A stretch of DNA of 63,985 nt, the filler included, from Candidatus Hydrogenedentota bacterium (GTDB lineage Bacteria > JBFMHD01), in the NCBI GenBank assembly GCA_040752395.1. It is 5 parts of 5 records of this genome, joined end to end, with 100 filler letters (N's around TTAATTAATTAA, not from the genome) between each part and the next. Parts side by side here need not be neighbours in the genome. Positions count along the whole stretch, not along the records: positions 1 to 26,232 come from JBFMHD010000010.1; 4 more parts are not named here. The stretch is one strand, 5' to 3'. This document shows positions 1,252 to 53,254 of the stretch, piece after piece (the first letter of the stretch is position 1; every line of letters starts with the position of its first letter). The notes beneath the pieces were generated by a model. It searched no databases and was not told where the DNA came from. It saw only the letters and a program-made list of their open reading frames with translations. The position numbers were made by a program, and so were the translations under genes.

Positions 1252-1964
1252 TTGCTGATTATAAAATCACAAGTTTTAATAATTTAAAAATACTAAAGAT
1301 AAACAAAATAATAACCTATGATTATATAGAGCACGGAATAATACTTAAAAATGATATTATAAAGAATCCATTACAGATTAAAGAGTTGTTATCACCTGAT
1401 GCATTGATACATCTAAATCAGGTTCATTCTGATAAAGTTATATTTATTAAAGAAATAAAAAAACCAATCATGCAATTTACTGGTGATGGACTTATAACAG
1501 ATAAAATAAAAGTTTGTTTAATAGTAAAAACAGCTGATTGTTACCCGGTTTTTGTTATAGACAAAAAGAACAAATTAGTCGGGATTATTCATTGTGGCAG
1601 AAAGGGTATTTTAAACGAGATAATTTTGAAAACCATTAAGAACATAGGCATCTATGATACAGAAATTTATATAGGTCCGGGCATAGGGTTTGATTGTTAC
1701 AAAGTTAATAATGAGATAATTGATGGTTACAGAAAAAAAGAATATTATAATGCAAACAGGATAAGGGCACAGAATGGTGTGCCCCTACTTGATTTAAAAG
1801 GCATTATAATAGACCAGTTACTATATTCGGGTATCCATCATAAAAATATTTTTTATATAGATATATGTTCACATTGTAGAAGAGACCTGTTTTATTCCTT
1901 TCGTCAAGGTGATAAGAATGATTCCAGCCGAAACTATTCTTATATCTTTCGCAAAGACAGGTAA
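1248..1964 (+). CDS. pgeF: YfiH/PgeF-family (laccase-domain) protein
   Basis: Motifs LNQVHS, DGLIT, TADCYPV, IHCGRKG and FYSFR. Confidence 0.88.
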   Translation: MIADYKITSFNNLKILKINKIITYDYIEHGIILKNDIIKNPLQIKELLSPDALIHLNQVHSDKVIFIKEIKKPIMQFTGDGLITDKIKVCLIVKTADCYPVFVIDKKNKLVGIIHCGRKGILNEIILKTIKNIGIYDTEIYIGPGIGFDCYKVNNEIIDGYRKKEYYNANRIRAQNGVPLLDLKGIIIDQLLYSGIHHKNIFYIDICSHCRRDLFYSFRQGDKNDSSRNYSYIFRKDR

Positions 1965-2043
1965 TATCAAAAGCGTATGTTTCTAAATAAACATTTGCAA
2001 AACTATTTAATTTTTGATAAATTTATTATTACAGCAATCGGTA

Positions 2044-2267
2044 AAGGCACCTGCCTGCGCCGCACTCCGCCGCAGCAGGCAAGCAGAGGCACAGAGGCAC
2101 AAAGTATGAAAAGAGTCGTGAGTCGCAAGTCGTGAGTCAAAACAGGACTCGAGACTCAAGACTCAAGACTTTTCAGCAGGCTCTGGGCTTTTGGCTCCAG
2201 CCGGCTGTACTCCGTAGCCCGTAGCCTGTACCCCGAATTATTAGAGTTACAGCGTTTTTCAGAGGAG
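2044..2267 (+). repeat. Modular intergenic repeat copy R1 (GGCACARA, GAGTCGT/GACTCAA, GGCT/TAGCC arrays, cap)
   Basis: Near-identical blocks at 26146-26232 and in reverse within R12, R14 and R19; ends in CAGAGGAG 4 nt before the accD ATG. Confidence 0.92.
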
Positions 2268-2271
2268 TATT

Positions 2272-3135
2272 ATGACCTGGTTTAAAAGGATCAAACCCGA
2301 GGTAATAAACGTAAAACCTATTCAGAAGCTTGTGCCTGATGGCACCTGGCTGAAGTGTATTAAATGCAATGAAATGTATCCTGCAAAAGAGCTTGAAGAT
2401 AATTTGAATGTCTGTCCTTTATGCGGTTATCATAACAGAATAAAATCTTCTCAGTGGATAAAGGTACTGTGCGATAACGGTAGTTTTATATCGATGTTTG
2501 AGGAGATAGTTTCAGATGACCCGCTGGAATTTGTAGACAGTAAACCCTATACAAAGCGTATTGAAGAGTCAAAACAAAAAAGCAACGTATCAGATGCTAT
2601 TATTTGTGGTGAATCAAAAATCTGTAACCATCGGGTTAGTTTAGGGGTTATGGATTTCTTTTTTATGGGTGGTAGTATGGGGAGCGTAGTTGGTGAAAGG
2701 TTTTTAAGAATAGTTGAGTTCGCTATTCTTAACAGCCTACCTTTAATAACGGTTTCATCTTCAGGTGGTGCGCGGATGCAAGAAGGTTTGTTATCTCTTA
2801 TGCAATTAGCGCGCACATCAGCTGTTATATCGAGATTTCAAAAAGCTGGAGGCTTTTATATCTCAATAATGGCTGACCCTACGACAGGCGGTACCACCGC
2901 GAGCTTCGCATCATTAGGTGATATAATTTTAGCTGAACCAGGTGCCTTGATAGGTTTTGCAGGACCGCGTGTCATAGAACAGACGATAAGACAGAAATTA
3001 CCCCCAAAATTTCAGACCGCTGAATTTTTACAGGAACATGGTTTCGTTGATTGCGTTGTCGAAAGAAAAAAATTGAAGAAAACTATCCATTTGTTAATCC
3101 ATTCCTTTATCGAACATACACCACCTGATGAATAA
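2272..3135 (+). CDS. accD: Acetyl-CoA carboxylase carboxyltransferase beta subunit
   Basis: Zinc finger WLKC..C...CPLC; motifs FMGGSMGSVVGE, SGGARMQEG and GFAGPRVIEQ. Confidence 0.97.
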   Translation: MTWFKRIKPEVINVKPIQKLVPDGTWLKCIKCNEMYPAKELEDNLNVCPLCGYHNRIKSSQWIKVLCDNGSFISMFEEIVSDDPLEFVDSKPYTKRIEESKQKSNVSDAIICGESKICNHRVSLGVMDFFFMGGSMGSVVGERFLRIVEFAILNSLPLITVSSSGGARMQEGLLSLMQLARTSAVISRFQKAGGFYISIMADPTTGGTTASFASLGDIILAEPGALIGFAGPRVIEQTIRQKLPPKFQTAEFLQEHGFVDCVVERKKLKKTIHLLIHSFIEHTPPDE

Positions 3136-4339
3136 CTTTATATACCAATCATTATTAAAATCTTCATTATGTTATAGAATCAATCCCTCATTAAAGCAGA
3201 TTAAACGATTTATAAATAAAATAGCTAATCCACAGAATAGTTTAGATGCCTCCTGTATAATTGCTGGTACCAATGGTAAAGCATCTACATCTTATTCTTT
3301 ATATTTTCTTATGAGAAACATTGGATTAAATGTTGGCTTATATACTTCCCCACATATTTTTGATTTCAGGGAGAGAATTATTTACAATGATAGAAAGATT
3401 AAAGAACAGGAGATTAAAGATATATATAGAACATTATGTAGATTAAAAGAGTTTAATGAACTTACGTTTTATGAAAAGATGACTGCAATAAGTTTTATAT
3501 ATTTTAAAGAGATGAAGCCTGATTTCACAATATTCGAAGTCGGGATGGGCGGTCGCTGGGATGCTGTAAGAGTTATCCCCTCCAAAACCGTTTTTTTAGT
3601 CAATGTCTCTATAGACCATTTAGAATATCTGGGAAAAGACAGAAAAACTATCCTCCTGGATAAAGCTTTTATAACTCATAATAGAGAGGAGGCAATAATA
3701 GGGTTCAGGATGGACAGAAATAGTATTAAAAGTGAGAGATGTTATTGTTATGGTGAAGAATTCTATTTTAATAAAGATAATCAATTCATTTTATTTAGTG
3801 AAAAGACTGATTTTGGTTACCCGGAATATTTACCCCCATTATATAAAAGCGATGTCGCATCAGCATTATTTTATCTGACAAAAAATTTTAATAAAAGAGA
3901 CGTTGTTCGTAGTTTTAAAAAAACAGTATTTAAGTTTCCTGCACGCTTTGATTTTATTCGTACCAATGTTATCCTTGATATAGCTCATAACCCCGAGGCT
4001 TTTTTCTATCTTATGAAAGAGTTATTAAGCAGGTTCTCAGGTAATATTTCTGTTGTATTTGGTATCTGCAAGGATAAAGAGATAGAATTGATCTTGCCTA
4101 TCCTGAAACATAAACGTATAAAAGTCATTGTTTATGAGCCTGAGGCTTATGAAAGAACTTTGCAAAAAAAAGATTTGATAAAACTTCTTGAAAAATATAG
4201 GATATTATATTATGATAAAATATGTTTAAAAGAATTACGAAAAGAAGACTGTCTTTGTATTACAGGTTCAATAATGACTGTATCAAAGTTCTGCAGAGAA
4301 TACGGGTATAGTCCGAGCATATTCTGGAATGAGGGTTAA
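3128..4339 (+). CDS. folC: Folylpolyglutamate synthase/dihydrofolate synthase
   Basis: Motifs IAGTNGK, YTSPH, EVGMGGRWDA and LDIAHNP; accD-folC synteny. Confidence 0.9.
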   Translation: MNNFIYQSLLKSSLCYRINPSLKQIKRFINKIANPQNSLDASCIIAGTNGKASTSYSLYFLMRNIGLNVGLYTSPHIFDFRERIIYNDRKIKEQEIKDIYRTLCRLKEFNELTFYEKMTAISFIYFKEMKPDFTIFEVGMGGRWDAVRVIPSKTVFLVNVSIDHLEYLGKDRKTILLDKAFITHNREEAIIGFRMDRNSIKSERCYCYGEEFYFNKDNQFILFSEKTDFGYPEYLPPLYKSDVASALFYLTKNFNKRDVVRSFKKTVFKFPARFDFIRTNVILDIAHNPEAFFYLMKELLSRFSGNISVVFGICKDKEIELILPILKHKRIKVIVYEPEAYERTLQKKDLIKLLEKYRILYYDKICLKELRKEDCLCITGSIMTVSKFCREYGYSPSIFWNEG

Positions 4340-4418
4340 TCGAAATGCCGAAAAACAACCACTTGCTAATAAACAATTGGTTCAGGGACAAGAAACAAGA
4401 TAAGGAGAAAATTTTCAA

Positions 4419-5294
4419 ATGAGCAAAGAACGCAGCGCAGTTGAAGTAATAAGATGTATAGATAAGATGCCGACGTTATCTACAACAGCAGGTAAAGTTG
4501 TTCAGATAGCAAATGACCCTGCAACTGACGCACGTCAGGTATCAAAAGTGATACAGATGGACCCTGTTTTAACAGGAAGGGTGCTGAGACTATTGAACTC
4601 AGCTTATTTTGCGTTACCCGAAAAAATATCTTCGGTTACACGTGCTATTGTTATGCTTGGCTTAAACACAGTTAAAAATCTTGCTTTATCTACATCGATA
4701 CTTACGAATTTTCCGCCACCTGAGGTTAAAACAAATTTTGATACTAATCTATTCTGGGAACATTCAGTCGGCTCTGGTGTTGCCTCAAAGCTTCTTGCAA
4801 ATAAACTTGGGATGGATCGGAATGCGCTTGAGGAGTTCTTTGTAGCAGGGTTATTACATGACACTGGTAAACTTGTTTTTAATCAGTTTTTATCAAAAGA
4901 ATTCAGTATGGTCTTAAAGCTGGTTGAGGAAAAGGCTTTAAGTATCAGCGAAGCAGAAACAATGGTAATTGGTATGACGCATTCTGAGGCAGGAAAATTA
5001 CTTGGAGAGAAGTGGAATTTACCGAACCCTATACTTGATGTTATCAGGTATCATCATGACCCATATAATGCAGAAATAAAATATCAAAGAGTTACGAGGG
5101 TTGTTCATCTCGGTGATATCTTATGCAAATCCAAAAATATCGGTTACAGCGGCGATAAAGTCATTACCAATCTTGATTTACGGGTAATGGAAGATTTAAA
5201 AATTACAAAAAACGACCTTGAAGGGATTCTTGGCGAATTAAAACAGGAAGTAGAAAAAGCAAGTCTATTTATAAAAGAGGCACAGAAAAAGTGA
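4419..5294 (+). CDS. HDOD domain protein
   Basis: Motifs DPVLTGRVLRLLNSAYF, FWEHS, GLLHDTGK and WNLP...YHH. Confidence 0.92.
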   Translation: MSKERSAVEVIRCIDKMPTLSTTAGKVVQIANDPATDARQVSKVIQMDPVLTGRVLRLLNSAYFALPEKISSVTRAIVMLGLNTVKNLALSTSILTNFPPPEVKTNFDTNLFWEHSVGSGVASKLLANKLGMDRNALEEFFVAGLLHDTGKLVFNQFLSKEFSMVLKLVEEKALSISEAETMVIGMTHSEAGKLLGEKWNLPNPILDVIRYHHDPYNAEIKYQRVTRVVHLGDILCKSKNIGYSGDKVITNLDLRVMEDLKITKNDLEGILGELKQEVEKASLFIKEAQKK

Positions 5295-6196
5295 GAGTAA
5301 GATTCTGGGGTGTAAGAGGGTCTATACCAACTCCCGGACCTAATACTATTCGATACGGCGGAAATACGCCCTGTATTGAGGTAAGGACTAATGACAGCAG
5401 GTTGTTCATACTCGAGGCAGGTACAGGACTTCGGGAGTTGGGAAATAGTTTAATTAAAGAAAAGAAGAACATTAATGCAGCTATACTTTTATCACATACC
5501 CATTGGGACCACATACATGGTTTCCCTTTTTTTATACCGATCTATATAATAGGGAATAAATTTGATATCTATGGACCCTGGAGTATAGATGCTGATTTAC
5601 AGAGTATTGTTGCAGGCCAGATGACATTCCAGTATTTCCCTGTGAAACTCGAGCATGTTATGGCTACTTTAGAGTTTCACGAGTTAAAAGCCGGTTCTTA
5701 TAATATTCAGGATGCTTCTGTTACCGTAAAATATATGAACCATCCTGTCCCTACTATCGGTTATAGAATTTTTGTTGACGATACTGTTCTGGTATATTCT
5801 GGAGACAATGAATCGGTTCAGAATATATTTAAAAAAGATAGTGATATTGAAACTAACGAAGAAGATATAATAATGAAGGAGGCTGAGCAAGCGGTGATAG
5901 AAGCTCACAAGGAGATGGTCGCTTTTGCTAAAGATGCTGATATGCTTATATATGATGCTCAATACACAAAAGATGAGTATCAATCAAAGAAAGGGTGGGG
6001 TCATTCTACTTTTGAGGATGCTATAGAAATAGCAAGAGAAGCTAATGTAAGGAGGCTCGTATTTTTCCATCACGACCCTTCAAGAAAAGACGAGGAATTA
6101 GAAAGAATTTTATTAAAACATAAAAGAGAGCTTGAAAAAGAAAAGTCTCCATTACTTCTTTTAGCTGCTCAAGAAGGTATGGAACTCGAAATTTAG
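5291..6196 (+). CDS. MBL-fold metallo-hydrolase
   Basis: Motifs FWGVRGSIP, YGGNTPC, LSHTHWDHIHG, GWGHS and FHHDP; GTG start. Confidence 0.92.
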   Translation: MRVRFWGVRGSIPTPGPNTIRYGGNTPCIEVRTNDSRLFILEAGTGLRELGNSLIKEKKNINAAILLSHTHWDHIHGFPFFIPIYIIGNKFDIYGPWSIDADLQSIVAGQMTFQYFPVKLEHVMATLEFHELKAGSYNIQDASVTVKYMNHPVPTIGYRIFVDDTVLVYSGDNESVQNIFKKDSDIETNEEDIIMKEAEQAVIEAHKEMVAFAKDADMLIYDAQYTKDEYQSKKGWGHSTFEDAIEIAREANVRRLVFFHHDPSRKDEELERILLKHKRELEKEKSPLLLLAAQEGMELEI

Positions 6197-6217
6197 ATGT
6201 AACACATCAGTTATAAT

Positions 6218-6412
6218 AAGATAACGAAAGAAGCAAGAAGCAAGAAGTAAGCACAGAGTAGTGAGGGTCACAAGACCCGTAGTATAGCCGGGTTTACCCA
6301 TCCATAGATAGGCACAGAGGCACAAAGGCACAAAGTATGAAAAACTAATATCTTGCTTCTTGCTTCTTGCTTCTACTTGATATTATTATAGTTACAATGT
6401 TTTTCAGAGGAG
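6218..6412 (+). repeat. Modular repeat copy R2 (AAGAAGC arm, GGCACARA x3, TTGCTTC x3, cap)
   Basis: 6311-6412 matches 7720-7821 at 101 of 102 positions. Confidence 0.92.
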
Positions 6413-6421
6413 AGGGGAGAC

Positions 6422-7696
6422 TTGAGAGTTTTTATAGAAAAAATAGTTCATGGCGGATTTGGGCTTGCAAGAACTGAAAAAGAGGGTGTTATTTTTGTAC
6501 CATATACTTTGGCAGGCGAAGTGGTAGAAGTCGAGTTAATGGATATTAATAAAAATAATCTTAAACTTGCCAAACCACTTAGTTTTAACGTTAAATCAGA
6601 CTCAAGAATTGAACCTGAGTGCAGATATTTTAAAGAGTGCGGTGGATGTCATTTCCAGCATATGGATTATAAATCTCAAAAACTGGCTAAATTCTCCATA
6701 CTCGATGATTGTTTAAAAAGAATAGGAAAAATTGATTATGATAAATATGAGTGGGTAGATGCAATGGATAAGTTTGGATATAGAAATAATTTTCAGTTTA
6801 AAGTAGACGAAAATGGGCATCTTGGTTTTTATAAAATGTTCTCCAATGATATAGTTCCCGTTGATAAATGTTTATTAGCAAACGAGAATGTGAATAAAGT
6901 TATTAAAATACTTAATAATTTATTAAGTAACGATAATAGACCCGATGAGATTGATATAAGAGTTTCACCACAAAATGAAATCTATCTTATTTTCAAATTT
7001 GAAAAAAATAAAATGAAGCAGCAAATGAATTCTATTTTGAAAAATATTGAGCACGTTGCTGGAATAAAGGTGGTAAATATCAATAATGATAGAGAAGAAA
7101 GCAGCTTTTACTATAGCGATGCTATGCAATTTGATATATCTGAGTATAAAATGGTGGTATCGTATGACTCTTTCTTTCAGATAAATTATAAAGTACTTAA
7201 TAAAATCGCTGGCTTAATTAATGATCTTATAAATTCTATCAAAGAATTACCATCAATAATGATTGAGCTTTATGGCGGTGTAGGTACTTTTAGTATATTA
7301 AACTTTTATAAAAAATTTGATTTCGTAATAATGATAGAGGAGAGTCATAAGAGTTGTGATAATGCACTGACTAATCTTGAATCAAATGACATAGGGAATG
7401 TTTCAGTATGGAATGTTGATGTTGAGACAGGACTTGCACGAATAATGAGACAGGATTTGGATTCTGTCTTTATTTTTATGGACCCGCCACGTACAGGACT
7501 GACACAACCAGTTATAAAGAGCATCCTGAGACAAAAACCTGAGTGGATTTTATCATTATCTTGTGAACCTTCTACTTTTGCACGTGATTTATCTTTTCTT
7601 GTTAAAGAATATGAGATAGTAAAAATGTATGTTATTGATATGTTTCCGCAGACAAGTCATATGGAAACATTAACGTTATTAAAGAGAAGTTGTTGA
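6422..7696 (+). CDS. rlmD: 23S rRNA (uracil-5)-methyltransferase, RlmD/TrmA family
   Basis: TRAM-like N-terminus; Fe-S motif CRYFKECGGC; motifs FFQIN, DPPRTG, SCEPSTFARD and DMFPQTSHME; TTG start. Confidence 0.9.
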   Translation: MRVFIEKIVHGGFGLARTEKEGVIFVPYTLAGEVVEVELMDINKNNLKLAKPLSFNVKSDSRIEPECRYFKECGGCHFQHMDYKSQKLAKFSILDDCLKRIGKIDYDKYEWVDAMDKFGYRNNFQFKVDENGHLGFYKMFSNDIVPVDKCLLANENVNKVIKILNNLLSNDNRPDEIDIRVSPQNEIYLIFKFEKNKMKQQMNSILKNIEHVAGIKVVNINNDREESSFYYSDAMQFDISEYKMVVSYDSFFQINYKVLNKIAGLINDLINSIKELPSIMIELYGGVGTFSILNFYKKFDFVIMIEESHKSCDNALTNLESNDIGNVSVWNVDVETGLARIMRQDLDSVFIFMDPPRTGLTQPVIKSILRQKPEWILSLSCEPSTFARDLSFLVKEYEIVKMYVIDMFPQTSHMETLTLLKRSC

Positions 7697-7821
7697 AAGA
7701 TTGAAAGATTCAAAGGAAAGGCACAGAGGCACAGAGGCACAAAGTATGAAAAACTAATATCTTGCTTCTTGCTTCTTGCTTCTACTTGATATTATTATAG
7801 TTACAATGTTTTTCAGAGGAG
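7693..7821 (+). repeat. Modular repeat copy R3 (AAGATTGA, GGCACARA, TTGCTTC, cap)
   Basis: Direct repeat of R2. Confidence 0.92.
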
Positions 7822-9216
7822 ATGATACGAAGTGTGGCTATGAGTAAGATACTCATTGTTGATGATAATCTTGAACACGCACAGGTTATAGCTGAAGCAC
7901 TTGGCAAAAGCGGCTGGACTGTTAAACTTGCAACATCAGATTTCCAGGCATTCAAAATATTGGATAGTGATAATGAAATAGCGTTGGTTATAACTGATTT
8001 AAAACTATCAGGACATTATGATGGTATAGCTCTTATGGAAGAAGCAAGAAAGAGGTATCCGTTTCTTGAATTCCTTGTTATCACAGGCTATGCTACGGTT
8101 GAAAATGCTGTTTTAGCAATGAAAAAGGGTGCATACGATTATCTCACCAAACCATTAAATCTTGACGAACTCAGACTCGTCGTATCGCGCGCAATGGAGA
8201 AACAGGAGATACTACTCCAGAATATTGAGTTAAAACAATACATAGAAGAAAAATACGGGCTTGAGAATATTATAGGTCGATCTGAGTCTATGTTAAAAGT
8301 TTTTAAAATAGCAAAACAGGTTGCACCTACCAACGCCAATGTTCTTATAGAAGGAGAATCAGGCACAGGCAAAGAACTGATTGCAAAGGCGATACACCAG
8401 TACTCACCACGTAAAAACAGGCTTTTTGTAGCACTTAATTGTGCTGCTATCTCTGAGGGAATCCTTGAAAGCGAGTTATTTGGTCATGAAAAAGGTGCAT
8501 TCACAGGCGCAATACAACGTAGAATAGGCAAATTTGAAGTTGCAAGCGGCGGAACGCTTTTTCTTGACGAAGTAGGTGATATGCCAGAGCAGACACAGGT
8601 GAAACTATTAAGGGTTATTGAGGAAAGGGTTATAGAAAGGGTAGGGGGTAATCTGCCCATAACTGTTGACGTTAGAATTATCGCAGCTACAAACCAGAAC
8701 CTTGAAAAACTTGTCCGCGACGGAAAATTCAGAGAAGATTTGTATTTCAGATTAAAAGTTGTAACCATCGTTATCCCACCTTTAAGAGAAAGAAAAAAGG
8801 ATATACTACTTCTTGTAGATTACTTTATAAAGCAGTTATCAAAAGCTCATAAAAAAGATGTTACAGGCATCTCAAAAGATGCTTTAGACATCTTCATTAG
8901 ATACGATTGGCCAGGTAATGTAAGACAACTCAAAAACATTCTTGAAAGTATGATCGTTATAGCACAGAAAGATATCCTTGATAAAGAGCTTATCCCTGAA
9001 GAAATTCTTGGTGATAATGTTATTAAACCTGATAAAAAATATTTACAGAACTTTTTCGGAATGAAACTTGAGGATGTTGAAAGATGCCTTATCCTTAATA
9101 CACTAAAAGAAACTAATGACAACAAGAAAGAAACAGCCTCTTTACTTGGTATAAGCGAGAGAACACTATATAGAAAACTTAAAGAATATTCAATAAAAGG
9201 CGGTGACACATCATAG
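7822..9216 (+). CDS. Sigma-54-dependent response regulator (REC-AAA+-Fis HTH); start may be 7840
   Basis: Receiver ILIVDD; motifs GESGTGKE, GAFTGA and WPGNVRQL; C-terminal HTH. Confidence 0.95.
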   Translation: MIRSVAMSKILIVDDNLEHAQVIAEALGKSGWTVKLATSDFQAFKILDSDNEIALVITDLKLSGHYDGIALMEEARKRYPFLEFLVITGYATVENAVLAMKKGAYDYLTKPLNLDELRLVVSRAMEKQEILLQNIELKQYIEEKYGLENIIGRSESMLKVFKIAKQVAPTNANVLIEGESGTGKELIAKAIHQYSPRKNRLFVALNCAAISEGILESELFGHEKGAFTGAIQRRIGKFEVASGGTLFLDEVGDMPEQTQVKLLRVIEERVIERVGGNLPITVDVRIIAATNQNLEKLVRDGKFREDLYFRLKVVTIVIPPLRERKKDILLLVDYFIKQLSKAHKKDVTGISKDALDIFIRYDWPGNVRQLKNILESMIVIAQKDILDKELIPEEILGDNVIKPDKKYLQNFFGMKLEDVERCLILNTLKETNDNKKETASLLGISERTLYRKLKEYSIKGGDTS

Positions 9217-9255
9217 CGTTATTGCGTGATTGAGTGTTTGGTGTTCGGTGTCTTT

Positions 9256-10716
9256 ATGAAAGCTAAGTATTTTTTCTTTTCAATTGTTTTAATTATAACA
9301 GGGATTGTTATAGGTACGGCTCTGACCGTATCTTTTGATAGAGATTACCAGAGTTTAGGAACCGAGATAGGCAGAATTGATGAAGAAAAGGTAAAACCAG
9401 CTATATCTTTGAGCAAGGCGTTTACCGAGGTAGCTGATAATTGTAGACCCGCGGTTATTTATATATTCAGTGAAAAGATTATAAGACGAAGATCACTCAA
9501 TCCCTTTATTGACGAATTTTTTGGAGATATTTTAGGTGAAGATTTTCTCGAAAAATATTATGGCATCCCACAGGAACGCAAAAGTGTCTCGCTTGGAACC
9601 GGCTTTATTGTTAGAGAAGATGGCATCGTTTTGACCAATACTCATGTCATTGAAGGAGCTGATAAGATATTTATAAAAATAGATGAAAGTGAAGAATATG
9701 AAGCAAAACTGATAGGGGAGGACAGAGGCACTGATATAGCTGTTTTAAAAATAAACTCTGATAAAAAATTTAAATATCTAAGACTTGGAGACTCTGATAA
9801 ACTTAAAGTGGGTGAATGGGTTATCGCTATAGGAAACCCATTCGGATTAACAAGAACAGTTACTGCTGGCATCGTGAGTGCGCTCGGACGCGGAGATGTA
9901 ACTAATACTGAATACGAAGACTACATACAGACCGATGCAAGTATTAACCCAGGTAACTCAGGTGGCCCATTAATCAATTTAAAAGCGGAAGTCATAGGAA
10001 TGAATGCAGCTATCTATTCTACATCGGGCGGTAATATTGGTATCGGATTTGCAATACCTTCTAATCTCTTGAAAAAAATTATGGAAGATTTACTTGATGA
10101 TGGCATTGTTGACAGAGGATGGCTTGGGATTTATGTTCAGAACCTCAATGAAGGCATCGCAGAAAAATTAGGTATAAATGGAGTAAAAGGTGTTATAATA
10201 ACAGATATTAAAAAAGAGAGCCCATCTTTTAAAGCAGGACTTAAAAAGGGTGATGTCATAACAGCTATCGATAATAAAAAGATAGAAAATTATAAAGATT
10301 TAGCTGATGTCCTGGCACAGATACCGGTAAATAAAACTGTTCCCGCAGAGATTATAAGAGATGGAAAGAAAATGACTATCAATATATATCTTGCATCAAG
10401 ATACAAGAACCGAGAAGGCGGGAAACACTCTATTGAAAATCTTGGGTTAACAGTTAAGAGCATCTCCAGGACGGTTTTAAGAAGATTAAAAATATACGGC
10501 ATCAGTGGCGGAATCATTGTTGAAGACGTTAGAGAAAATACCACTGCTTTTAAAAGTGGGATTAAAATAAACGATATTATCATAGAGATAAATGAGCAGA
10601 GCATTACTGATACAGAATCTTTTATTGAAGTTTTATCACAAATAAGTGATAGAGAACCGTTACGATTTACCATTATTCGTAATGGAAAAATATTTTATAG
10701 ATACATAAATGATTGA
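9256..10716 (+). CDS. HtrA/DegP/DegQ serine protease with two PDZ domains
   Basis: Motifs LTNTHVI, DIAVLK and INPGNSGGPL; ATG at 9256 preferred because the upstream GTG extension lies in short repeats. Confidence 0.95.
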   Translation: MKAKYFFFSIVLIITGIVIGTALTVSFDRDYQSLGTEIGRIDEEKVKPAISLSKAFTEVADNCRPAVIYIFSEKIIRRRSLNPFIDEFFGDILGEDFLEKYYGIPQERKSVSLGTGFIVREDGIVLTNTHVIEGADKIFIKIDESEEYEAKLIGEDRGTDIAVLKINSDKKFKYLRLGDSDKLKVGEWVIAIGNPFGLTRTVTAGIVSALGRGDVTNTEYEDYIQTDASINPGNSGGPLINLKAEVIGMNAAIYSTSGGNIGIGFAIPSNLLKKIMEDLLDDGIVDRGWLGIYVQNLNEGIAEKLGINGVKGVIITDIKKESPSFKAGLKKGDVITAIDNKKIENYKDLADVLAQIPVNKTVPAEIIRDGKKMTINIYLASRYKNREGGKHSIENLGLTVKSISRTVLRRLKIYGISGGIIVEDVRENTTAFKSGIKINDIIIEINEQSITDTESFIEVLSQISDREPLRFTIIRNGKIFYRYIND

Positions 10717-10717
10717 T

Positions 10718-10940
10718 GGCGTTTAGTGTTCGGTGTTTGGTTTTGGGTTATCGGTAAACCGACCACTGAACACCCAGAACCGAAAACCGAATATCTTGCT
10801 TCTTGCTTCTACTTGATATTATTACACTTACAGCGTTTTTCCCTGTAGCCTGTCCTGATACTTCTCACTTCCCACTTTTGCCTTTTAACTTTTAACTTTC
10901 TGGCTGATATTATTAGAGTTAGAATGTTTTTCAAGGGAGG
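10718..10940 (+). repeat. Modular repeat copy R4 (GTGTTCG/CCGAAHA inverted arrays, TTGCTTC, partial cap, ACTTCYC, TTTTAAC, cap)
   Basis: Shares blocks with the other copies; the cap ends just before the LysM ATG. Confidence 0.88.
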
Positions 10941-10946
10941 CATTTT

Positions 10947-11393
10947 ATGATTAAAAAAATTATAGTTCTTACGCTGGTTTTTAGTTTCGGATTTTGTAGC
11001 ACCTTTTTAGCAACAGAAAATGAATTATCAAAAAAAGTAGAGGCTACACTAAAAAAGCTCGAGGAATTGAATAAAGAAGTTCAGGCTTTGAAAGAAGACA
11101 TTGCTAAACTTAAAAAAGAAGCAGAAGATACAAATACACCATTTATTAAAACAAAAACTGTCAAAGAAAAGAAGACAAGCACTCTTATTTCTGATGATAG
11201 CACCATAGAATACATAGTAAAACCAGGTGATACTTTATCAAAGATAGCACAAGACCATTATGGTAAATCTTCATTATGGAAAGATATATTAGAGATAAAT
11301 AAAGACATAATATCATCACCACAAAAACTAAGAGCAGGTATGAAGATAAGATTATATAGAAACGAGGCACAAAGGCACAAAGGCACAGAGTAG
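10947..11393 (+). CDS. Secreted coiled-coil plus LysM peptidoglycan-binding protein
   Basis: Signal peptide; YIVKPGDTLSKIAQDHYG...W..I...N. Confidence 0.9.
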   Translation: MIKKIIVLTLVFSFGFCSTFLATENELSKKVEATLKKLEELNKEVQALKEDIAKLKKEAEDTNTPFIKTKTVKEKKTSTLISDDSTIEYIVKPGDTLSKIAQDHYGKSSLWKDILEINKDIISSPQKLRAGMKIRLYRNEAQRHKGTE

Positions 11394-11630
11394 GGAAAAG
11401 ATAGGAGTTAGGAGTTCGTAATAATAGATCCGAGCTCCGAGCTTTGAACTCCGAACTTCGAATTTTTTCGAAGAAGTACTCATGATCGCGGGTTGCGCTC
11501 TACACAATATATGAAAAACTAAGGATGATATGTTGGCTTCAGGCTCCGGGCTTCGGGCTCCAGCCGGCTGTAGTCCGTAGCCCGTAGCCTGTACCCCGAA
11601 TTATTAGAGTTACAGCGTTTTTCAGAGGAG
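11365..11630 (+). repeat. Modular repeat copy R5
   Basis: GGCACAAA x3 overlapping the LysM 3' end; GGAGTT/AACTCC inverted arrays; CTCTACAC linker; GGCT..CAGCCGGCTG..TAGCC; cap identical to that of R1. Confidence 0.9.
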
Positions 11631-11732: not shown

Positions 11733-11975
11733 TCAATATTCAGGTTTTAATCCTGCAAGCTTTGAGAACGTAATGATACCTTGCGCACAACTATGTATGT
11801 CATTTGGATATAATTGATTTATCCTGTGTTTTGGGTTCCCCTGAATAGTAAAGAGATTTTTCATATAACTATCTGCTGAGTTTAGAAGCACACTATCCCA
11901 TTCATTAATATTCAGTTCCACTTTAGAATCATAAATCTGTTCAATAATTCCGGCTGTATGATAATTATCAATATA
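11733..11975 (-). pseudogene. Fragment of a surface-polysaccharide-locus protein (YIDNYHT...YPNDIHSCAQ)
   Basis: Short internal segment without a credible start, abutting the asnB C-terminal remnant. Confidence 0.45.
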
Positions 11976-12568
11976 CGAGTTCTTTGTATTGATAGGGTAT
12001 TGAAAAAGCAAACTTTACAAGGTCTTTATCAAGAAACGGGACTCTTACCTCAACGCCGTGCGCCATTGAGGTTCTATCTTCATTAAGCAAAAAATCGTCT
12101 ATAAGTTTGATGTTTAACTCAGTTATTAAACTCTGCTCAAGTATCGATTTTTGGTTATCCATAAAAAAAAGAAATAATAATTTTTTTACTATCAAAAATA
12201 GCAAACGCAAAAATACCATCAAGTCTATCCACCATACTGAAACCAGCTTCTTCATAGAGATGCAAAAATATCTCAGTATCAGAATTAGATTTGAACCTGT
12301 GGCCCTTTTCTATAAGCTCTTTTCTAAGAATGGGGTAATTATACAATTCACCATTATAAACTATTATTATATCTCCATCCTCATTACACATAGGTTGGTC
12401 GCCTTTTTCAAGGTCGATAATGCTTAATCTTGTATGACCGAGGTGGACTTTGTTATCTGGACTAATATAGTAGCCGCTATTGTCAGGTCCTCTGTGACTT
12501 AAAATCTCAGACATTTTATTTAATAAATTTTTATTATTTGTAGAGGTAAAGCCGAAGATACCACACAA
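11968..12568 (-). pseudogene. asnB: Asparagine synthase (glutamine-hydrolysing) AsnB-like remnant, internally deleted and frameshifted
   Basis: N-terminal MCGIFG, HRGPD, GHTRLSIID and NGELYN; in another frame the C-terminal DRTSMAHGVEVRVPFLD; about 600 bp in total versus about 1.9 kb normally. Confidence 0.85.
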
Positions 12569-15997: not shown

Positions 15998-16031
15998 GAT
16001 ATCATTAGAGTTACAATGTTTTTCAGAGGAG
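15998..16031 (+). promoter_or_regulatory. Stand-alone repeat cap (R6) carrying the Shine-Dalgarno of mtnA
   Basis: GATATCATTAGAGTTACAATGTTTTTCAGAGGAG, 5 nt before ATG 16037. Confidence 0.8.
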
Positions 16032-16036
16032 CTGAT

Positions 16037-17098
16037 ATGAAACTGGACATACCCAAGGCGATTGAATGGGACGGGAAGGAGGTGGTTATAATTGATCAGA
16101 CTTTACTACCCTTGAGATTAAAAAAGATAAAAATTAAAAGAATAGAAGAAATGGCTATCGCGATAAAAACTCTACAGATAAGAGGAGCGCCTGCCATAGG
16201 TGTAGCTAGTGCATTTGGTGTTATGCTTGGAATGAAAAATTTAAAAGAAAGAGACATAAGAAAGAGATTTTATAGAAGCTGTGAGATTATAAGAAAAACA
16301 AGACCCACAGCAGTCAACCTTTTCTGGGCTATAGATAAAATAAAAGAGTGGTTTGAAGAACTGGTTGATAAATGTTCATATAATGAAATAGTCTCACGAA
16401 TAACTGAGATGGCTGTTGATATTTTAAAAGATGATGAAAAGAGATGTTTAAGAATGGGAATGAATGGGGCTAAACTTTTAAAAGACGGTGATACTGTTTT
16501 GACCCATTGTAATGCCGGGGCTATGGCAACAGCAGGGATAGGGACCGCATTATCGGTTATATATTATGCTGCATCAAAAGGTAAGAGGATAAAAGTGTAT
16601 GTTGATGAAACAAGACCGCTGCTACAGGGTTCCAGAATAACAGCATGGGAATTAAAAAGAGCAGGGATAGATGTCACCCTTATCACTGATAATATGGCTG
16701 GCTGGGTGATGAGAAAAAAAGGTATAGATAAAGTGATTGTAGGCGCTGATAGAATTGCAAGAAATGGGGATACTGCAAATAAAATCGGGACGTATTCTAT
16801 TGCAATACTTGCTAAAGAACACCATATACCATTCTATGTTGTTGCACCCCTCTCTACTATTGACATATCTTTAAATTCAGGTGAATATATACCGATTGAG
16901 GAGAGGGGCTGGGATGAAATAATTATGCGATTCGGAGTCTTAACAGCACCCAGACGTGTAAAAGCTTTTAATCCAGCATTTGATGTGACACCTTCAAAAT
17001 ATATTTCAGCAATAATTACAGATATGGGAATAGTATATAGACCATATACTAAATCAATAATGAATTTAATGTCGCAAGAGAAAGGATTTAGAAAATGA
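16037..17098 (+). CDS. mtnA: S-methyl-5-thioribose-1-phosphate isomerase
   Basis: Motifs IDQTLLP, IRGAPAIG, RPTAVNL, THCNAG, ETRPLLQGSR and NPAFDVTP; the MFFRG extension in the ORF track comes from the repeat cap. Confidence 0.95.
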   Translation: MKLDIPKAIEWDGKEVVIIDQTLLPLRLKKIKIKRIEEMAIAIKTLQIRGAPAIGVASAFGVMLGMKNLKERDIRKRFYRSCEIIRKTRPTAVNLFWAIDKIKEWFEELVDKCSYNEIVSRITEMAVDILKDDEKRCLRMGMNGAKLLKDGDTVLTHCNAGAMATAGIGTALSVIYYAASKGKRIKVYVDETRPLLQGSRITAWELKRAGIDVTLITDNMAGWVMRKKGIDKVIVGADRIARNGDTANKIGTYSIAILAKEHHIPFYVVAPLSTIDISLNSGEYIPIEERGWDEIIMRFGVLTAPRRVKAFNPAFDVTPSKYISAIITDMGIVYRPYTKSIMNLMSQEKGFRK

Positions 17099-21151: not shown

Positions 21152-21383
21152 AAAGATTAAAAGATTGAAAGATTCAAAATTTTTCTGATACTTCTCACTT
21201 TTTCAGAGGAGTCGTCATGAGCGCGTTTACGCTCTACACTATTGGGTTATTGGGTTATTGGGTTATTGCGTTCTTGCGTTCTACACAACGTATGAAAAAC
21301 CAGATGTTTGTTTATCTTGCTTCTTGCTTCTTGACTCTTGCTTCTACTTGATATTATTAGAGTTACAATGTTTTTCAGAGGAG
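21152..21383 (+). repeat. Modular repeat copy R8 (AAGATTGA, mini-cap, GGGTTATT x3, linker, TTGCTTC, cap)
   Basis: Blocks match the reverse copy R14 and the caps elsewhere. Confidence 0.9.
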
Positions 21384-21402
21384 GAGACAGAAAGGAGAAT
21401 GA

Positions 21403-30218: not shown

Positions 30219-30543
30219 CTCCTCTGAAAAACTTTGTAACTATAATAATATCAAGTAGAAGCAAGAAGCAAGATAACGGAAGAAGTGAGAGGTATCAGGA
30301 CAGGCTACAGGCTACGGGCTACAGCCGGCTGGAGCCAAAAGCCCAAAGCCTGCTGAAAAGTCTTGAGTCTTGAGTCTTGAGTCTTGAGTCTCGAGTCCTG
30401 TTTTGACTCACGACTTGCGACTCACGACTCACGACTCTTTTTATATCATCTTTAGTTTTTCATCCTTTGTGTACCCCGTTAGAGAACCTAAGTCAACTTA
30501 TATGTCAACAAAATAACTTTCTCTAAGGGCGTGTAGAGCGCGA
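30219..30543 (-). repeat. Modular repeat copy R12 (near full length, with nested insertion)
   Basis: Linker, GAGTCGT x4, GACTCAA array, GGCT/TAGCC, ACTTC, TTGCTTC, cap. Confidence 0.93.
30474..30531. mobile_element. 58-bp mini-insertion with 12-bp imperfect IR and TGTA target duplication
   Basis: TGTA|CCCCGTTAGAGA...TCTCTAAGGGCG|TGTA; R10 and R14 show the empty site TTTGTGTAGA. Confidence 0.75.
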
Positions 30544-34054: not shown

Positions 34055-34372
34055 CTCCTCTGAAAAACGCTGTAATTCTAATAATTTGGGCTACAGGCTA
34101 CGGACTACAGCCGGCTGGAGCCCCCTATGAAAAGTCTTGAGTCTTGAGTCTCGAGTCCTGTTTTGACTCACGACTTGCGACTCGCGACTCTTTTCATATC
34201 ATCTTTAGTTTTTCATCCTTTGTGTAGAACGCAAAAACCCAAAAACGCAATAACCCAATAACCCAATAGTGTAGAGCGCAAACCACGCTCATGACTCCTC
34301 TGAAAAAGTAAGAAATGAAAAGTAGCAGTAAAATGGAGGATGCAGAAATAATCTTTTAATCTTTGAATCTCT
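34055..34372 (-). repeat. Modular repeat copy R14 (near full length)
   Basis: AAGATT octamers, mini-cap, GGGTTATT array, linker, GAGTC/GACTC, CAGCCGGCTG, TAGCC, cap before PilZ. Confidence 0.93.
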
Positions 34373-36139: not shown

Positions 36140-36226
36140 GCCCGTCCTGACACCTCTCACTTCTTCCGTTATCTTGCTTCTTGCTTCTACTTGATATCAT
36201 TAGAGTTAGAATGTTTTTCAGAGGGG
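36140..36226 (+). repeat. Modular repeat copy R16 (3' part with cap), at the contig start
   Basis: CCTGACACCTCTCACTTCTTCCGTTATCTTGCTTC...TTTTCAGAGGGG before nuoJ. Confidence 0.9.
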
Positions 36227-36239
36227 GATAGTATCTAAA

Positions 36240-36722
36240 ATGACCATTAGCATCACTATTTTGCTTACAGTTCTGTTGATAGTTTCCGCAGGCTTTGTTG
36301 TTCTATCAAAGAATGTAGCAAGAAGCGCCTTCTTCTTATTGTTCACGTTTAGTTGTGTTGCCTGTTTTTATTCTATACTTGGTTGTAATTTTCTTGCTTG
36401 TGTCTGGGTGATGATTTATGTCGGTGGTATCCTTGTTCTTATTATTTTTGGCGTTATCATAACATACACTATACAAAATATTGGTTTTACACAAAAACAG
36501 AATCTAGTTCCTGGTATTATTATTTCTGTCTGTATGTTTATTGTTTTTCTTAAATTAATCTCATCTTCAGCCTGGCCAAAACTGAATATTACATCACAAG
36601 AAGTAAATCAGATAGCAGATACTTTACTCGGGCCGTATATGTTGCCGTTTGAAGCTGTCTCTATCCTTCTTCTTATATGTATGATCGGTGCTGCAACCAT
36701 CGCTCGAAGGAGACTCGAATGA
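36240..36722 (+). CDS. nuoJ: NADH-quinone oxidoreductase subunit J
   Basis: IYVGGILVL and YMLPFEAVSILLL. Confidence 0.92.
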   Translation: MTISITILLTVLLIVSAGFVVLSKNVARSAFFLLFTFSCVACFYSILGCNFLACVWVMIYVGGILVLIIFGVIITYTIQNIGFTQKQNLVPGIIISVCMFIVFLKLISSSAWPKLNITSQEVNQIADTLLGPYMLPFEAVSILLLICMIGAATIARRRLE

Positions 36723-45610: not shown

Positions 45611-45819
45611 CTCCTCTGAAAAACATTGTAACTATAATAATATCAAGTAGAAGCAAGAGGCAAGATAACGGAAAGAAAGATAACGAAAGAAACAAGAAGC
45701 AAGATAACGGAAGAAGTGAGAGGTGTCAGGACGGGCTACAGGCTACGGACTACAGCCGGCTGGAGCCAAAAGCCCAGAGCCTGCTGAAAAGTCTTGAGTC
45801 TTGAGTCTTGAGTCCTGTT
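45611..45819 (-). repeat. Modular repeat copy R17, truncated by the contig end
   Basis: GACTCAA, GGCT/TAGCC, ACTTC, duplicated GTTATCTT blocks; cap 7 nt before the ATG. Confidence 0.92.
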
Positions 45820-45919
45820 NNNNNNNNNNNNNNNNNNNNNNNNNNNNNNNNNNNNNNNNNNNNTTAATTAATTAANNNNNNNNNNNNNNNNNNNNNNNNN
45901 NNNNNNNNNNNNNNNNNNN
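45820..45919. other. Artificial contig spacer
   Basis: N-run with TTAATTAATTAA. Confidence 0.99.
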
Positions 45920-46193
45920 GTACTGCAAAAGGCTTGGCGGAACTTGAATAAACAAGGAGCGTCAGGGATAGACAGACAAAGTATCAAAGAGATAGAGGAA
46001 AATGGAGTAGATGAATTTCTGAAAGGGATACAGGAAGAATTGAAAGATGAAAGTTATCGGAAAGCCGTGAGAGGGAAAACTTCAAGCACGGTTTGATGAG
46101 GGGGTGCTGGAGACAGTATGAATGTTAAGTGCTTAACTGGTCGCTTGCGACGTATCACTAACAATATCCTACTGCGCCAGCGCTCTACTCTAC
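45920..46193 (+). mobile_element. Group II intron 3' remnant: RT-0 fragment joined to domains V and VI
   Basis: VLQKAWRNLNKQGASGIDRQS..IQEELKDESYR, then AAAGCCGTGAGAGGGAAAACTTCAAGCACGGTTT (DV, AGC triad) and GTGCTGG..CCAGCGCTCTACTCTAC (DVI and 3' end). Confidence 0.88.
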
Positions 46194-53119: not shown

Positions 53120-53254
53120 CCCGTAGCCTGTAGCCTGTCCTGCTACTTCTCACTTCCCACTTCTTACTTCTTACTTTTTCCGTTATCTTGCCTCTTGCCT
53201 CTTGCTTCTTGCTTCTACTTGATATCATTAGAGTTACAACGTTTTTCAGAGGAG
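53110..53254 (+). repeat. Modular repeat copy R18 overlapping the cca stop
   Basis: GGCTGTAGCCCGTAGCC, ACTTCTY x4, TTGCYTC x4; cap 5 nt before ATG 53260. Confidence 0.92.

What the first reader, a model, noticed from the sequence alone, without database searches (positions are those of the whole stretch)
15998..16039. Repeat cap behaves like a portable ribosome-binding site (and perhaps promoter) for unrelated genes
Seen: the cap, consensus (CTTGA)TATYATTAKAGTTACARYGTTTTTCAGAGGAG, occurs 12 times (R1-R6, R8, R12, R14, R16-R18). In 11 cases a real gene starts within about 35 nt on the same strand: accD, rlmD, NtrC-like, LysM, mtnA, GGDEF, SBP, PilZ, nuoJ, the MalK-type ATPase and DUF362. For accD, mtnA, PilZ, the ATPase and DUF362 the cap's GGAG is at normal SD spacing. 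At mtnA the cap stands alone. Many copies contain TGATATTAT, one mismatch from an extended -10. Inference: the element either targets SD sequences (recombining at GGAG) or supplies the translation signal, making it hard to lose and possibly linking these genes in a regulon.
Basis: partly seen in the sequence, partly recalled or inferred. Interest (0 to 1): 0.82.

Follow-up and report, generated by a model that had tools for sequence, protein, structure and literature searches.

The report
Mosaic repeat ending at ribosome-binding sites
The conserved end of a very abundant intergenic repeat is joined exactly at the GGAG ribosome-binding motif in front of about a tenth of this bacterium's genes, so the repeat seems to home to and preserve translation start signals rather than to build a regulon.

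Summary
The cap occurs 12 times in the window (0 expected) and 346 times in the 2.84-Mb genome. In 260 of 346 copies a scored gene starts within 60 nt on the same strand. In 227 of these the start lies 4-13 nt after GGAG, the spacing of native GGAG Shine-Dalgarno sites. Conservation stops exactly after GGAG.

In two tRNA genes the cap's GGAG is nucleotides 1-4 of the tRNA. GGAG is therefore the junction with host sequence, not merely imported signal.

The cap is the gene-proximal end of polar mosaic repeats made of hairpins and heptamer arrays. These sit inside operons, for example infC|rpmI and leuC|leuD.

Best reading: a GGAG-seeking, GGAG-regenerating mosaic element whose end serves as the Shine-Dalgarno site of about 10% of genes. 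Neither a promoter role nor a regulon is supported. No transposase, relative or RNA data were found.

Closest known are Neisseria REP2, MIRU, REP/BIME and TAACTGA repeats. I class it as a new variant of a known kind.

The parts
16000..16031 (+). Focal cap, standing alone (the repeat is 34 nt long in all). The terminal GGAG at 16028-16031 lies 5 nt before the mtnA ATG at 16037.
16037..17098 (+). mtnA (S-methyl-5-thioribose-1-phosphate isomerase), the gene served by the focal cap.
   Evidence: TIGR00512, 420.9 bits
2236..2267 (+). Type-2 cap (AATTATTAGAGTTACAGCG...) after hairpin modules C and D. GGAG lies 4 nt before the accD ATG at 2272.
6381..6412 (+). Type-1 cap after CTTGCTT heptamers. GGAG lies 9 nt before the rlmD TTG at 6422.
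7790..7821 (+). Type-1 cap before an NtrC-family regulator. An ATG follows at 7822 (distance 0). The likely start MSKILIVDD is at 7840 (distance 18).
10908..10939 (+). Diverged cap (3 mismatches, ...CAAGGGAG) 7 nt before the LysM gene ATG at 10947. A truncated internal cap lies further upstream in the same composite.
11599..11630 (+). Type-2 cap with no gene downstream. It faces fragments of an asnB-like gene on the minus strand.
21352..21383 (+). Type-1 cap 19 nt before the GTG of a GGDEF gene at 21403. That gene keeps its own GGAG at 21394-21397.
30219..30250 (-). Type-1 cap 30 nt before the ATG (30188) of a sugar ABC substrate-binding protein, which keeps its own GGAGG.
34055..34086 (-). 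Type-2 cap 7 nt before the ATG (34047) of a PilZ-domain protein.
36195..36226 (+). Cap (ends GGGG) 13 nt before the nuoJ ATG at 36240. A contig joint (N run) lies just upstream.
45611..45642 (-). Type-1 cap 7 nt before the ATG (45603) of a UgpC/MalK-type ABC ATPase. The full module series C-D-E lies upstream of it.
53223..53254 (+). Type-1 cap 5 nt before the ATG (53260) of a DUF362/4Fe-4S protein.

Best explanation
The cap is the invariant, gene-proximal end of a very abundant family of polar mosaic intergenic repeats. Their typical module order is:
- A: a small hairpin plus GGGTTATT arrays
- B: TATGAAAAACTAAAGATGATATG
- C: hairpin
- D: hairpin
- E: CU-rich CTTGCTT arrays
- cap

The repeat is joined to host DNA precisely at a GGAG tetranucleotide. 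Either it integrates at (or is copied by recombination through) a pre-existing GGAG and regenerates it, or, equivalently, it ends in its own GGAG laid exactly over the host's.

The GGAG sites where an insertion is tolerated are mostly Shine-Dalgarno (SD) cores, plus the 5' ends of tRNAs that begin with GGAG. The repeat therefore piles up immediately before start codons, in the orientation of the gene, and the gene keeps an SD at unchanged spacing. In effect the cap's AGGAG is the working ribosome-binding site of about 10% of the genes. It is an SD-seeking, SD-preserving junction rather than a cassette that gives new expression signals to genes.

Shown: copy number, strand and position bias, the sharp boundary, native spacing, the tRNA fusions, operon-internal location, and polarity of all modules.

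Inferred: mobility, the integration mechanism, that the composites are co-transcribed with the flanking genes, and that the effect on expression is near neutral.
For: 1. Scale and bias. There are 346 copies. A scored gene starts within 60 nt on the same strand in 260 of 346, covering 258 of 2551 called genes. In 227 of these 260 the start is 4-13 nt after GGAG. Controls: 5 of 346 on the antisense strand and 773 of 5000 at random positions.

2. Boundary. Information content is 1.7-2.0 bits through GGAG and falls to 0.1-0.3 at the next base. Anchoring only on the upstream 15 nt gives 382 hits. Of these, 272 are followed by CAGAGGAG, and most of the rest by one- or two-base variants.

3. Spacing and following bases resemble native GGAG SDs. 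The native peak is at 5-11 nt and the cap peak at 4-12 nt. After GGAG come G, then A/T.

4. tRNAs. Of 43 tRNAs, 4 begin with GGAG. In 2 of them (tRNA-Ser-tga on C28 and tRNA-Tyr on C175) the cap's GGAG is tRNA positions 1-4. Infernal places model position 1 on the same base.

5. Insertions upstream of an intact SD are rare: 21 of 260 have distance 14-60, and 12 of those keep their own SD. Selection against disruption alone would not give this.

6. The same junction is used by other modules. Another 128 ends have the form TTTTCNNAGGAG on different arrays: 39 are followed by a start within 13 nt, and most of the rest by module A. In 111 of 140 module-A heads, GGAG lies exactly 5 nt before their ATG, in roughly 30 cases within unique sequence.

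7. Operon-internal location. Examples are infC|rpmI, leuC|leuD and tRNA|tuf. In tandem contexts, 81 of 148 composites begin within 30 nt of the upstream stop.

8. All modules are co-oriented with the genes. Sense to antisense: A 66:1, B 87:2, C 89:2, D 136:16, cap 169:5.

9. Subfamilies in which a cap variant is tied to a particular upstream module look like amplification from a few source copies.
Against: - No mobilising enzyme was found in the 93.8%-complete assembly: Y1_Tnp 0, TnpB 0, RVT_1 0, Y2_Tnp only a 22-bit fragment. The IS110 and DDE contigs are not linked to the modules.
- No empty site and no relative could be examined. None of 40 other genomes, all related only at domain level, has the cap. 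The metagenome scan gave 2 hits that look like chance.
- Left ends are ragged. Composite length runs from 22 to 480 nt, median 186. GGAG stands at the left boundary in only 40 of 248 composites, against 11-12 of 248 in controls. So there is no general target duplication and no constant second end.
- GGAG alone does not explain the preference. 310 of 813 SD-position GGAGs are preceded by repeat. 1048 other non-coding GGAGs stand in unique sequence, and at most 34 caps lie at such places. Either extra target specificity or selection for retention at SDs is needed.
- Predicted accessibility of the ribosome-binding site is lower for cap genes than for native GGAG genes: 0.39 against 0.46, Mann-Whitney p = 1.4e-7. 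The insertion may therefore not be neutral.
Confidence: 0.6

Rival explanations
1. Portable expression cassette, as described for Neisseria REP2. The cap (with module E) would carry a promoter (extended -10 TGATATTAT), a short leader and an SD, and would give downstream genes their own transcription and translation signals, perhaps forming a co-regulated set.
For: - 227 of 346 caps contain TGnTATYAT. A start about 7 nt downstream would give a leader of about 25 nt (inference).
- Hairpin C is followed by TTTT in both orientations and might reduce read-through, which would create a need for a new promoter.
- REP2 and the Borrelia IR elements are precedents (passages of PMC3184786).
Against: - About 105 caps have AATTATTAG without the TG.
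- No -35 lies at 16-18 nt, and the consensus scan is at chance level: 82 found against 78.7 expected.
- Hairpin C does not pass the terminator scan in the sense direction.
- Cap genes are not enriched at divergent regions.
- Cap genes lie inside conserved operons and a tRNA cluster.
- The start codon is not part of the repeat.
- The tRNA fusions cannot be explained by a need for an SD.
Confidence: 0.13
2. Post-transcriptional control layer. The shared leader would be a binding site for a global RNA-binding protein (S1-, CsrA- or Csp-like) or sRNA. Alternatively, the CU-rich heptamer arrays of module E would act as anti-SD mimics that sequester the cap's AGAGGAG, so that repeat number tunes translation.
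For: - The 18 nt before GGAG are as conserved as GGAG itself.
- In predicted ensembles the GGAG is paired with probability 0.74, mostly with CUUCU/CCUCU of module E 40-65 nt upstream.
- Ribosome-binding sites of cap genes are predicted to be less open than native ones.
- Hairpin D is more stable in the sense strand in 263 of 308 copies, against 43 in the antisense strand, as expected for a structure used at RNA level.
- A similar proposal exists for the TAACTGA repeats (abstract of PMC4679880).
Against: - The copies are too alike for covariation, so conservation can equally reflect recent amplification.
- The SD pairing varies between individual folds.
- Stand-alone caps and type-2 caps lack module E.
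- The gene functions have nothing in common.
- No Rfam family matches.
Confidence: 0.15
3. Retention ratchet. The elements insert or spread without any GGAG specificity and bring their own SD. Copies that happen to replace a gene's SD cannot be lost, while all other copies decay. This would leave caps with eroded left sides in front of genes.
For: - Ragged left ends down to 22-nt remnants.
- Few caps away from gene starts.
- The repeat modules also occur, without a cap, in convergent regions.
Against: - It needs the native SD to be deleted and the spacing restored at more than 200 loci.
- It predicts many harmless insertions upstream of intact SDs, but only 21 of 260 are at distance 14-60.
- It cannot explain a join at base 1 of two tRNAs.
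Confidence: 0.1

Closest known systems
Neisseria REP2 repeats (and Borrelia IR-A/IR-B)
   Same: Repeats lying immediately upstream of unrelated ORFs that contain the ribosome-binding site, with internal stem-loops (passages of the review PMC3184786).
   Different: REP2 is a single unit of 120-150 bp with about 26 copies. It also carries a promoter and the ATG, and 14 of its genes are co-regulated. Here there are 346 copies of a mosaic of variable length, the start codon lies outside the repeat, a promoter is not supported, and two copies are fused to tRNA 5' ends.
Mycobacterial interspersed repetitive units (MIRU)
   Same: Intercistronic repeats inside operons, thought to be mobile and to insert at translation start signals in a way that spares expression of the downstream gene (passage of PMC12548453).
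   Different: MIRUs insert at start codons and couple an internal ORF to the gene with a -4 overlap. Here the junction is the SD core. The only regular internal ORF (module A) ends a median of 156 nt before the cap, and only 8 of 69 end near it.
REP/BIME mosaic elements with RAYT (TnpA-REP), and IS200/IS605 insertion next to a tetranucleotide
   Same: Mosaic arrays of imperfect palindromes in transcribed intergenic regions. Hairpin D contains repeated GTAG. One element end abuts a fixed tetranucleotide without a general target duplication, as in IS608, which recognises a tetranucleotide by base pairing (search listing and abstract starts of PMC5934647, PMC3201880 and PMC8266576). The remaining details are recalled.
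   Different: No Y1 transposase or TnpB gene was found. REP/BIMEs lie mostly 3' of genes (recalled), whereas these lie 5' of genes and are strictly polar. The cap has no subterminal hairpin, and the far end is ragged.
TAACTGA heptamer direct repeats of marine Beggiatoaceae
   Same: Tandem heptamers within a few nucleotides of start codons of many unrelated genes, ribosomal protein genes included, with a proposed role in translation (abstract and section titles of PMC4679880).
   Different: [quoted passage not shown] Here many different heptamer and octamer arrays are capped by one unique 32-nt sequence that ends in a canonical GGAG.

Membership tests
Shine-Dalgarno ribosome-binding site (functional class) | Purine-rich GGAG core 4-13 nt upstream of a start codon on the coding strand | tested here: met
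   227 of 260 cap-gene pairs have distance 4-13. The native GGAG peak is at 5-11 nt.
Shine-Dalgarno ribosome-binding site (functional class) | Complementarity to this organism's own 16S rRNA 3' end | not testable with these tools
   No 16S 3' region is present in the assembly. The canonical CCUCC is assumed.
Sigma-70 type promoter | -35 and -10 hexamers 16-18 nt apart, or an extended -10 (TGnTATAAT) | tested here: inconclusive
   TGnTATYAT is present in 227 of 346 caps and absent from the type-2 caps. No usable -35 is seen by inspection. The consensus scan is at chance level: 82 found against 78.7 expected.
Sigma-70 type promoter | A mapped transcription start | not testable with these tools
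Neisseria REP2-type upstream repeat | The repeat contains the RBS and lies immediately upstream of ORFs | tested here: met
Neisseria REP2-type upstream repeat | The repeat contains the ATG start codon | tested here: not met
   Conservation ends after GGAG, and the spacer and start codon are gene-specific.
Neisseria REP2-type upstream repeat | The downstream genes are co-regulated | not testable with these tools
   There are no expression data. The gene functions are unrelated.
MIRU | Intercistronic position inside operons | tested here: met
   infC|rpmI and leuC|leuD; 81 of 148 composites begin within 30 nt of the upstream stop.
MIRU | An internal ORF whose stop overlaps the start of the downstream gene (-4 coupling) | tested here: not met
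   The module-A mini-ORF (117 examined) ends in module B, a median of 156 nt before the cap end. Only 8 of 69 end near the cap.
REP/BIME with RAYT | Imperfect palindromic units combined in mosaics | tested here: met
   Hairpins C and D fold in all five composites folded. Fixed module order and inverted modules.
REP/BIME with RAYT | A Y1 (RAYT) transposase gene in the genome | tested here: not met
   PF01797: 0 matches in the 93.8%-complete assembly; the control genomes do give matches.
MITE | Terminal inverted repeats and a constant target-site duplication | tested here: not met
   Left ends start in any module. GGAG stands at the left boundary in 40 of 248 composites.
IS200/IS605-type single-strand element | One end abuts a fixed tetranucleotide in the flank | tested here: met
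   GGAG at the cap end and 5 nt before 111 of 140 module-A heads.
IS200/IS605-type single-strand element | Subterminal hairpins at both ends, and TnpA/TnpB genes | tested here: not met
   A hairpin exists only at the module-A head (GAGCGC-N5-GCGCTC). The cap has none. There are no TnpA or TnpB genes.
Rfam RNA families | A match to any curated covariance model | tested here: not met
   Only tRNAs and one group II intron piece reach gathering score. Nothing was found on the composites at E up to 1.

The most novel reading that the evidence does not exclude
The mosaic repeats are a previously undescribed kind of non-autonomous mobile DNA that homes specifically to the Shine-Dalgarno core (GGAG) and regenerates it. 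It would be moved by machinery that belongs to none of the usual families: no Y1, Y2, TnpB or reverse transcriptase gene was found. Its fixed end at GGAG and ragged far end point to one-ended or template-switch copying. By now it would underlie more than a third of the GGAG-type ribosome-binding sites of this genome, and its CU-rich arrays would be able to tune those sites.
Probability: 0.3. Interest if true: 0.8.

Novelty: new variant of a known kind. Interest (0 to 1): 0.64.

Why it matters
If the reading holds, a selfish repeat has found a way to multiply inside operons at almost no cost. It lands on the ribosome-binding motif and rebuilds it.

The scale is unusual. One gene in ten (258 of 2551 called genes) and 310 of 813 GGAG sites at SD position have a repeat end directly before the GGAG.

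This matters in three ways:
- It gives a natural experiment on how much upstream context a ribosome-binding site tolerates.
- It explains why this genome assembles into 349 pieces: 79 composites run into contig ends.
- It warns annotators that start-codon and SD statistics in such genomes are partly the footprint of one repeat family.

Tried and rejected
- RNA evidence: the look-up of sequencing runs on window 1500-11400 listed no run, so no RNA holder was listed.
- Relatives: all 40 'relatives' offered are related only at domain level, and none has the cap.
- The metagenome scan gave 2 isolated matches. One is upstream of a spoIIAA-like ORF and one is inside an ORF. I take both as chance.
- The viral-contig scans for the cap and for the module-A head gave 0 hits.
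- Empty alleles within the assembly: self-BLAST found only repeat-sized duplicates and no allelic contig pairs.
- Taxonomy: the Atlas look-up with NuoL gave no usable placement.
- Transposase hunt: Y1, TnpB and RVT_1 gave 0 matches. Y2 gave a 34-residue fragment within a 78-aa open frame. One IS110 and three DDE hits lie on small contigs without modules at their ends.
- SD sequestration as a fixed structure: the folds of five full composites differ outside hairpins C and D.
- Other non-coding RNA genes fused to caps: Rfam on the 34 caps without a called gene found only the tRNAs.
- Literature: the string TTTTTCAGAGGAG occurs in no held paper. Searches for intergenic repeats at SD or start sites gave the analogues cited and nothing that describes this element.
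Full report
**Observation.** The focal copy is at 16000-16031, and the mtnA ATG follows 5 nt later. The distances are 4, 9, 0 or 18, 7, 5, 19, 30, 7, 13, 7 and 5 nt. The GGDEF and binding-protein genes keep their own SD between cap and start. The copy at 11599 faces only fragments of an asnB-like gene on the other strand.

**Genome-wide.** The window is part of a 2,843,250-base draft of 349 contigs with 34.8% G+C. The 22-nt core GTTACAATGTTTTTCAGAGGAG occurs 346 times at up to 3 substitutions, 98 of them exact.
- An ORF of at least 70 aa starts within 40 nt downstream on the same strand in 252 of 346 copies. The figures are 5 of 346 on the opposite strand and 773 of 5000 at random positions.
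- With a crude codon-usage gene caller of my own (2551 genes), 260 of 346 caps have a scored gene start within 60 nt, covering 258 distinct genes.
- Of these 260, 227 are at distance 4-13, 12 at 0-3 (several of these have a second in-frame start at SD distance), and 21 at 14-60, of which 12 keep their own SD.
- Of the 86 caps without a called gene, 25 lie within 150 nt of a contig end, 27 are followed by another repeat module, and 34 are 'other'. By my reading of the sequences, the 'other' group includes rpmI, rpmH, rpsR, an lpxC with a probable ATT start, and two tRNAs. The true share of caps next to a gene start is therefore higher than 75%.

**Where the repeat ends.** With all copies aligned on the cap end, information content is 1.7-2.0 bits through GGAG and 0.1-0.3 bits from the next base on. 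Anchoring only on the upstream 15 nt gives 382 hits. Of these, 272 are followed by CAGAGGAG, and most of the rest by near variants. The spacing of the cap GGAG to the start (4-12 nt, mode 5-8) resembles that of GGAG before genes without a cap (5-11 nt, mode 8). The bases after GGAG are G, then A/T-rich, as in native sites.

**tRNA fusions.** ARAGORN finds 43 tRNAs, of which 4 begin with GGAG. In 2 of these (tRNA-Ser-tga on contig C28 and tRNA-Tyr on C175) the last four bases of the cap are positions 1-4 of the tRNA. Infernal's tRNA model places its first position on the same base. A tRNA needs no SD. The GGAG at the cap end is therefore shared with pre-existing host sequence. The repeat is joined at GGAG, whether one describes that as insertion next to a host GGAG or as an element-borne GGAG laid exactly over it. 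Because insertions that leave an intact SD downstream are rare (21 of 260), simple selection against harmful insertions does not explain the pattern.

**Anatomy.** The cap is the last module of mosaic composites 22-480 nt long, median 186 (267 had a defined left end and 79 run into contig ends). Repeated 12-mers cover 237,922 bases. The recurrent module order is:
- A: CATGAGCGCGGGTTGCGCTCTACAC plus GGGTTATT-type octamers
- B: TATGAAAAACTAAAGATGATATG
- C: a long imperfect hairpin of GAGTCGT/GACTCAA heptamers
- D: a hairpin centred on CCAGCCGGCTG, with GTAGCC heptamers
- E: CU-rich, CCTCTCACTTCTTCCGTTATC plus CTTGCTT heptamers
- the cap

Two cap subtypes are tied to the preceding module. Type 1 (...CTTGATATTATTATAGTTACAATG...) follows E. 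Type 2 (...CCCGAATTATTAGAGTTACAGCG...) follows D.

All modules are co-oriented with the flanking genes in tandem regions and are rare in convergent regions. Sense to antisense: A 66:1, B 87:2, C 89:2, D 136:16, E 140:56, cap 169:5.

The composites sit at operon-internal junctions. Examples are infC|rpmI, leuC|leuD and tRNA|tuf, and between tRNA genes. In tandem contexts, 81 of 148 begin within 30 nt of the upstream stop. Cap genes are not enriched in divergent regions.

**The same junction elsewhere.** Another 128 ends of the form TTTTCNNAGGAG close other arrays (CCGAACT, CTTACTT, GACTCAAGAC and others). Of these, 39 are followed by a start within 13 nt, and most of the rest by module A. In 111 of 140 module-A heads, GGAG lies exactly 5 nt before their ATG. 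In roughly 30 of these (my count from the listing) the GGAG stands in unique sequence. So GGAG is the usual seam between units and between unit and host.

Three results speak against a simple transposon picture:
- The outer left ends start in any module.
- GGAG stands at the left boundary in only 40 of 248 composites, against 11-12 of 248 in control windows.
- The mini-ORF that starts at module A ends in module B, a median of 156 nt before the cap.

**Promoter, structure and regulon.**
- TGnTATYAT is present in 227 of 346 caps, and type-2 caps lack it.
- I saw no -35 at normal spacing, and the consensus scan of 20 kb is at chance level: 82 found against 78.7 expected.
- Hairpins C and D fold in all five composites tested, but the pairing of the SD differs between them.
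- Hairpin D is more stable in the sense strand in 263 of 308 copies (less stable in 43), and C in 131 of 210 (less stable in 77). This fits structures used in RNA.
- The stretch from GGAG to the start codon is predicted to be less open in 227 cap genes (unpaired probability 0.39) than in 478 native GGAG genes (0.46), p = 1.4e-7.
- In 196 contexts the GGAG is paired with probability 0.74, mainly with CUUCU/CCUCU of module E.
- These are thermodynamic predictions without covariation. They keep a tuning role possible but do not show one.
- No Rfam family matches the composites.

**Mobility and relatives.**
- The own genome (93.8% complete) gives 0 matches to Y1_Tnp, TnpB and RVT_1. It gives a 22-bit Y2_Tnp fragment, one IS110 transposase and three DDE hits, none linked to the modules.
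- None of 40 other genomes offered, all related only at domain level, has the cap.
- Metagenome and viral scans gave 2 matches that look like chance, and none.
- GGAG census: 310 of 813 SD-position GGAGs are preceded by repeat. 1048 other non-coding GGAGs stand in unique sequence, and at most 34 caps lie at such places. Either the target is more than GGAG, or copies at SDs are kept preferentially.

**Comparison with known systems.**
- Neisseria REP2 and the Borrelia IR elements are repeats upstream of genes that carry a promoter, an RBS and an ATG (passages of PMC3184786).
- MIRUs are thought to insert at start codons and to couple an internal ORF to the gene (passage of PMC12548453).
- TAACTGA heptamers lie just before start codons in a marine Beggiatoaceae genome (abstract of PMC4679880).
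- IS608 chooses a tetranucleotide by base pairing, and REPs are linked to a Y1 transposase (listing and abstract starts).
- The present element shares one or two features with each and fails a defining feature of each (see the membership table). I therefore file it as a new variant of intergenic mosaic repeat.

**Verdict.** The promoter and regulon ideas are not supported, though neither is excluded.

Noticed in passing
window 45820-45919 and just upstream of 36195: Runs of N around the linker TTAATTAATTAA. The window is a chain of separate contigs, and the joints fall inside mosaic repeats.
   Followed up: partly
window 45920-46193: A contig begins with a short frame resembling the start of a group II intron reverse transcriptase (my reading of the sequence, no search), followed by an Intron_gpII domain V/VI match (41.1 bits). 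It is the only such match in the genome, and no RVT_1 domain was found.
   Followed up: partly
genome contigs C3, C113, C130, C199, C313, C349: A palindromic insert of about 65 nt (ends CCCGTTAGAGAA ... TTCTCTAACGGG, containing TTGACA) sits inside module A, in several copies between two TACAC copies. It looks like a small MITE with a 5-bp target duplication.
   Followed up: partly
genome-wide, module A/B: Module A starts with GGAG-N5-ATG and opens a mini-ORF (MSAGCALH..., median 23 aa). By my own reading of its sequence, module B carries stop codons in all three frames, so the mini-ORF ends there whatever the octamer number.
   Followed up: partly
window 11733-12568 (-): An asparagine-synthase-like gene (starting MCGIFGF...) is broken into several short frames. 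It is probably a pseudogene.
   Followed up: no
L089 190-211: An unrelated metagenome contig carries the exact 22-nt core 7 nt before a spoIIAA-like ORF. It is a single copy with no other module, and I take it as chance.
   Followed up: partly
genome contig C101, cap ending at 131 (L104): An lpxC-like frame follows the cap without an ATG, GTG or TTG. An ATT 9 nt after GGAG may be the start codon.
   Followed up: no
genome contig C175 2900-3700: A tRNA cluster in which a mosaic composite of about 400 nt separates a preceding tRNA from tRNA-Tyr, which is followed by tRNA-Gly. The composites therefore also sit inside tRNA operons.
   Followed up: partly
genome contig C263: A single IS110-family transposase (368-aa open frame, 56.6 bits) on a 1.7-kb contig, with no mosaic modules at its ends.
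   Followed up: partly
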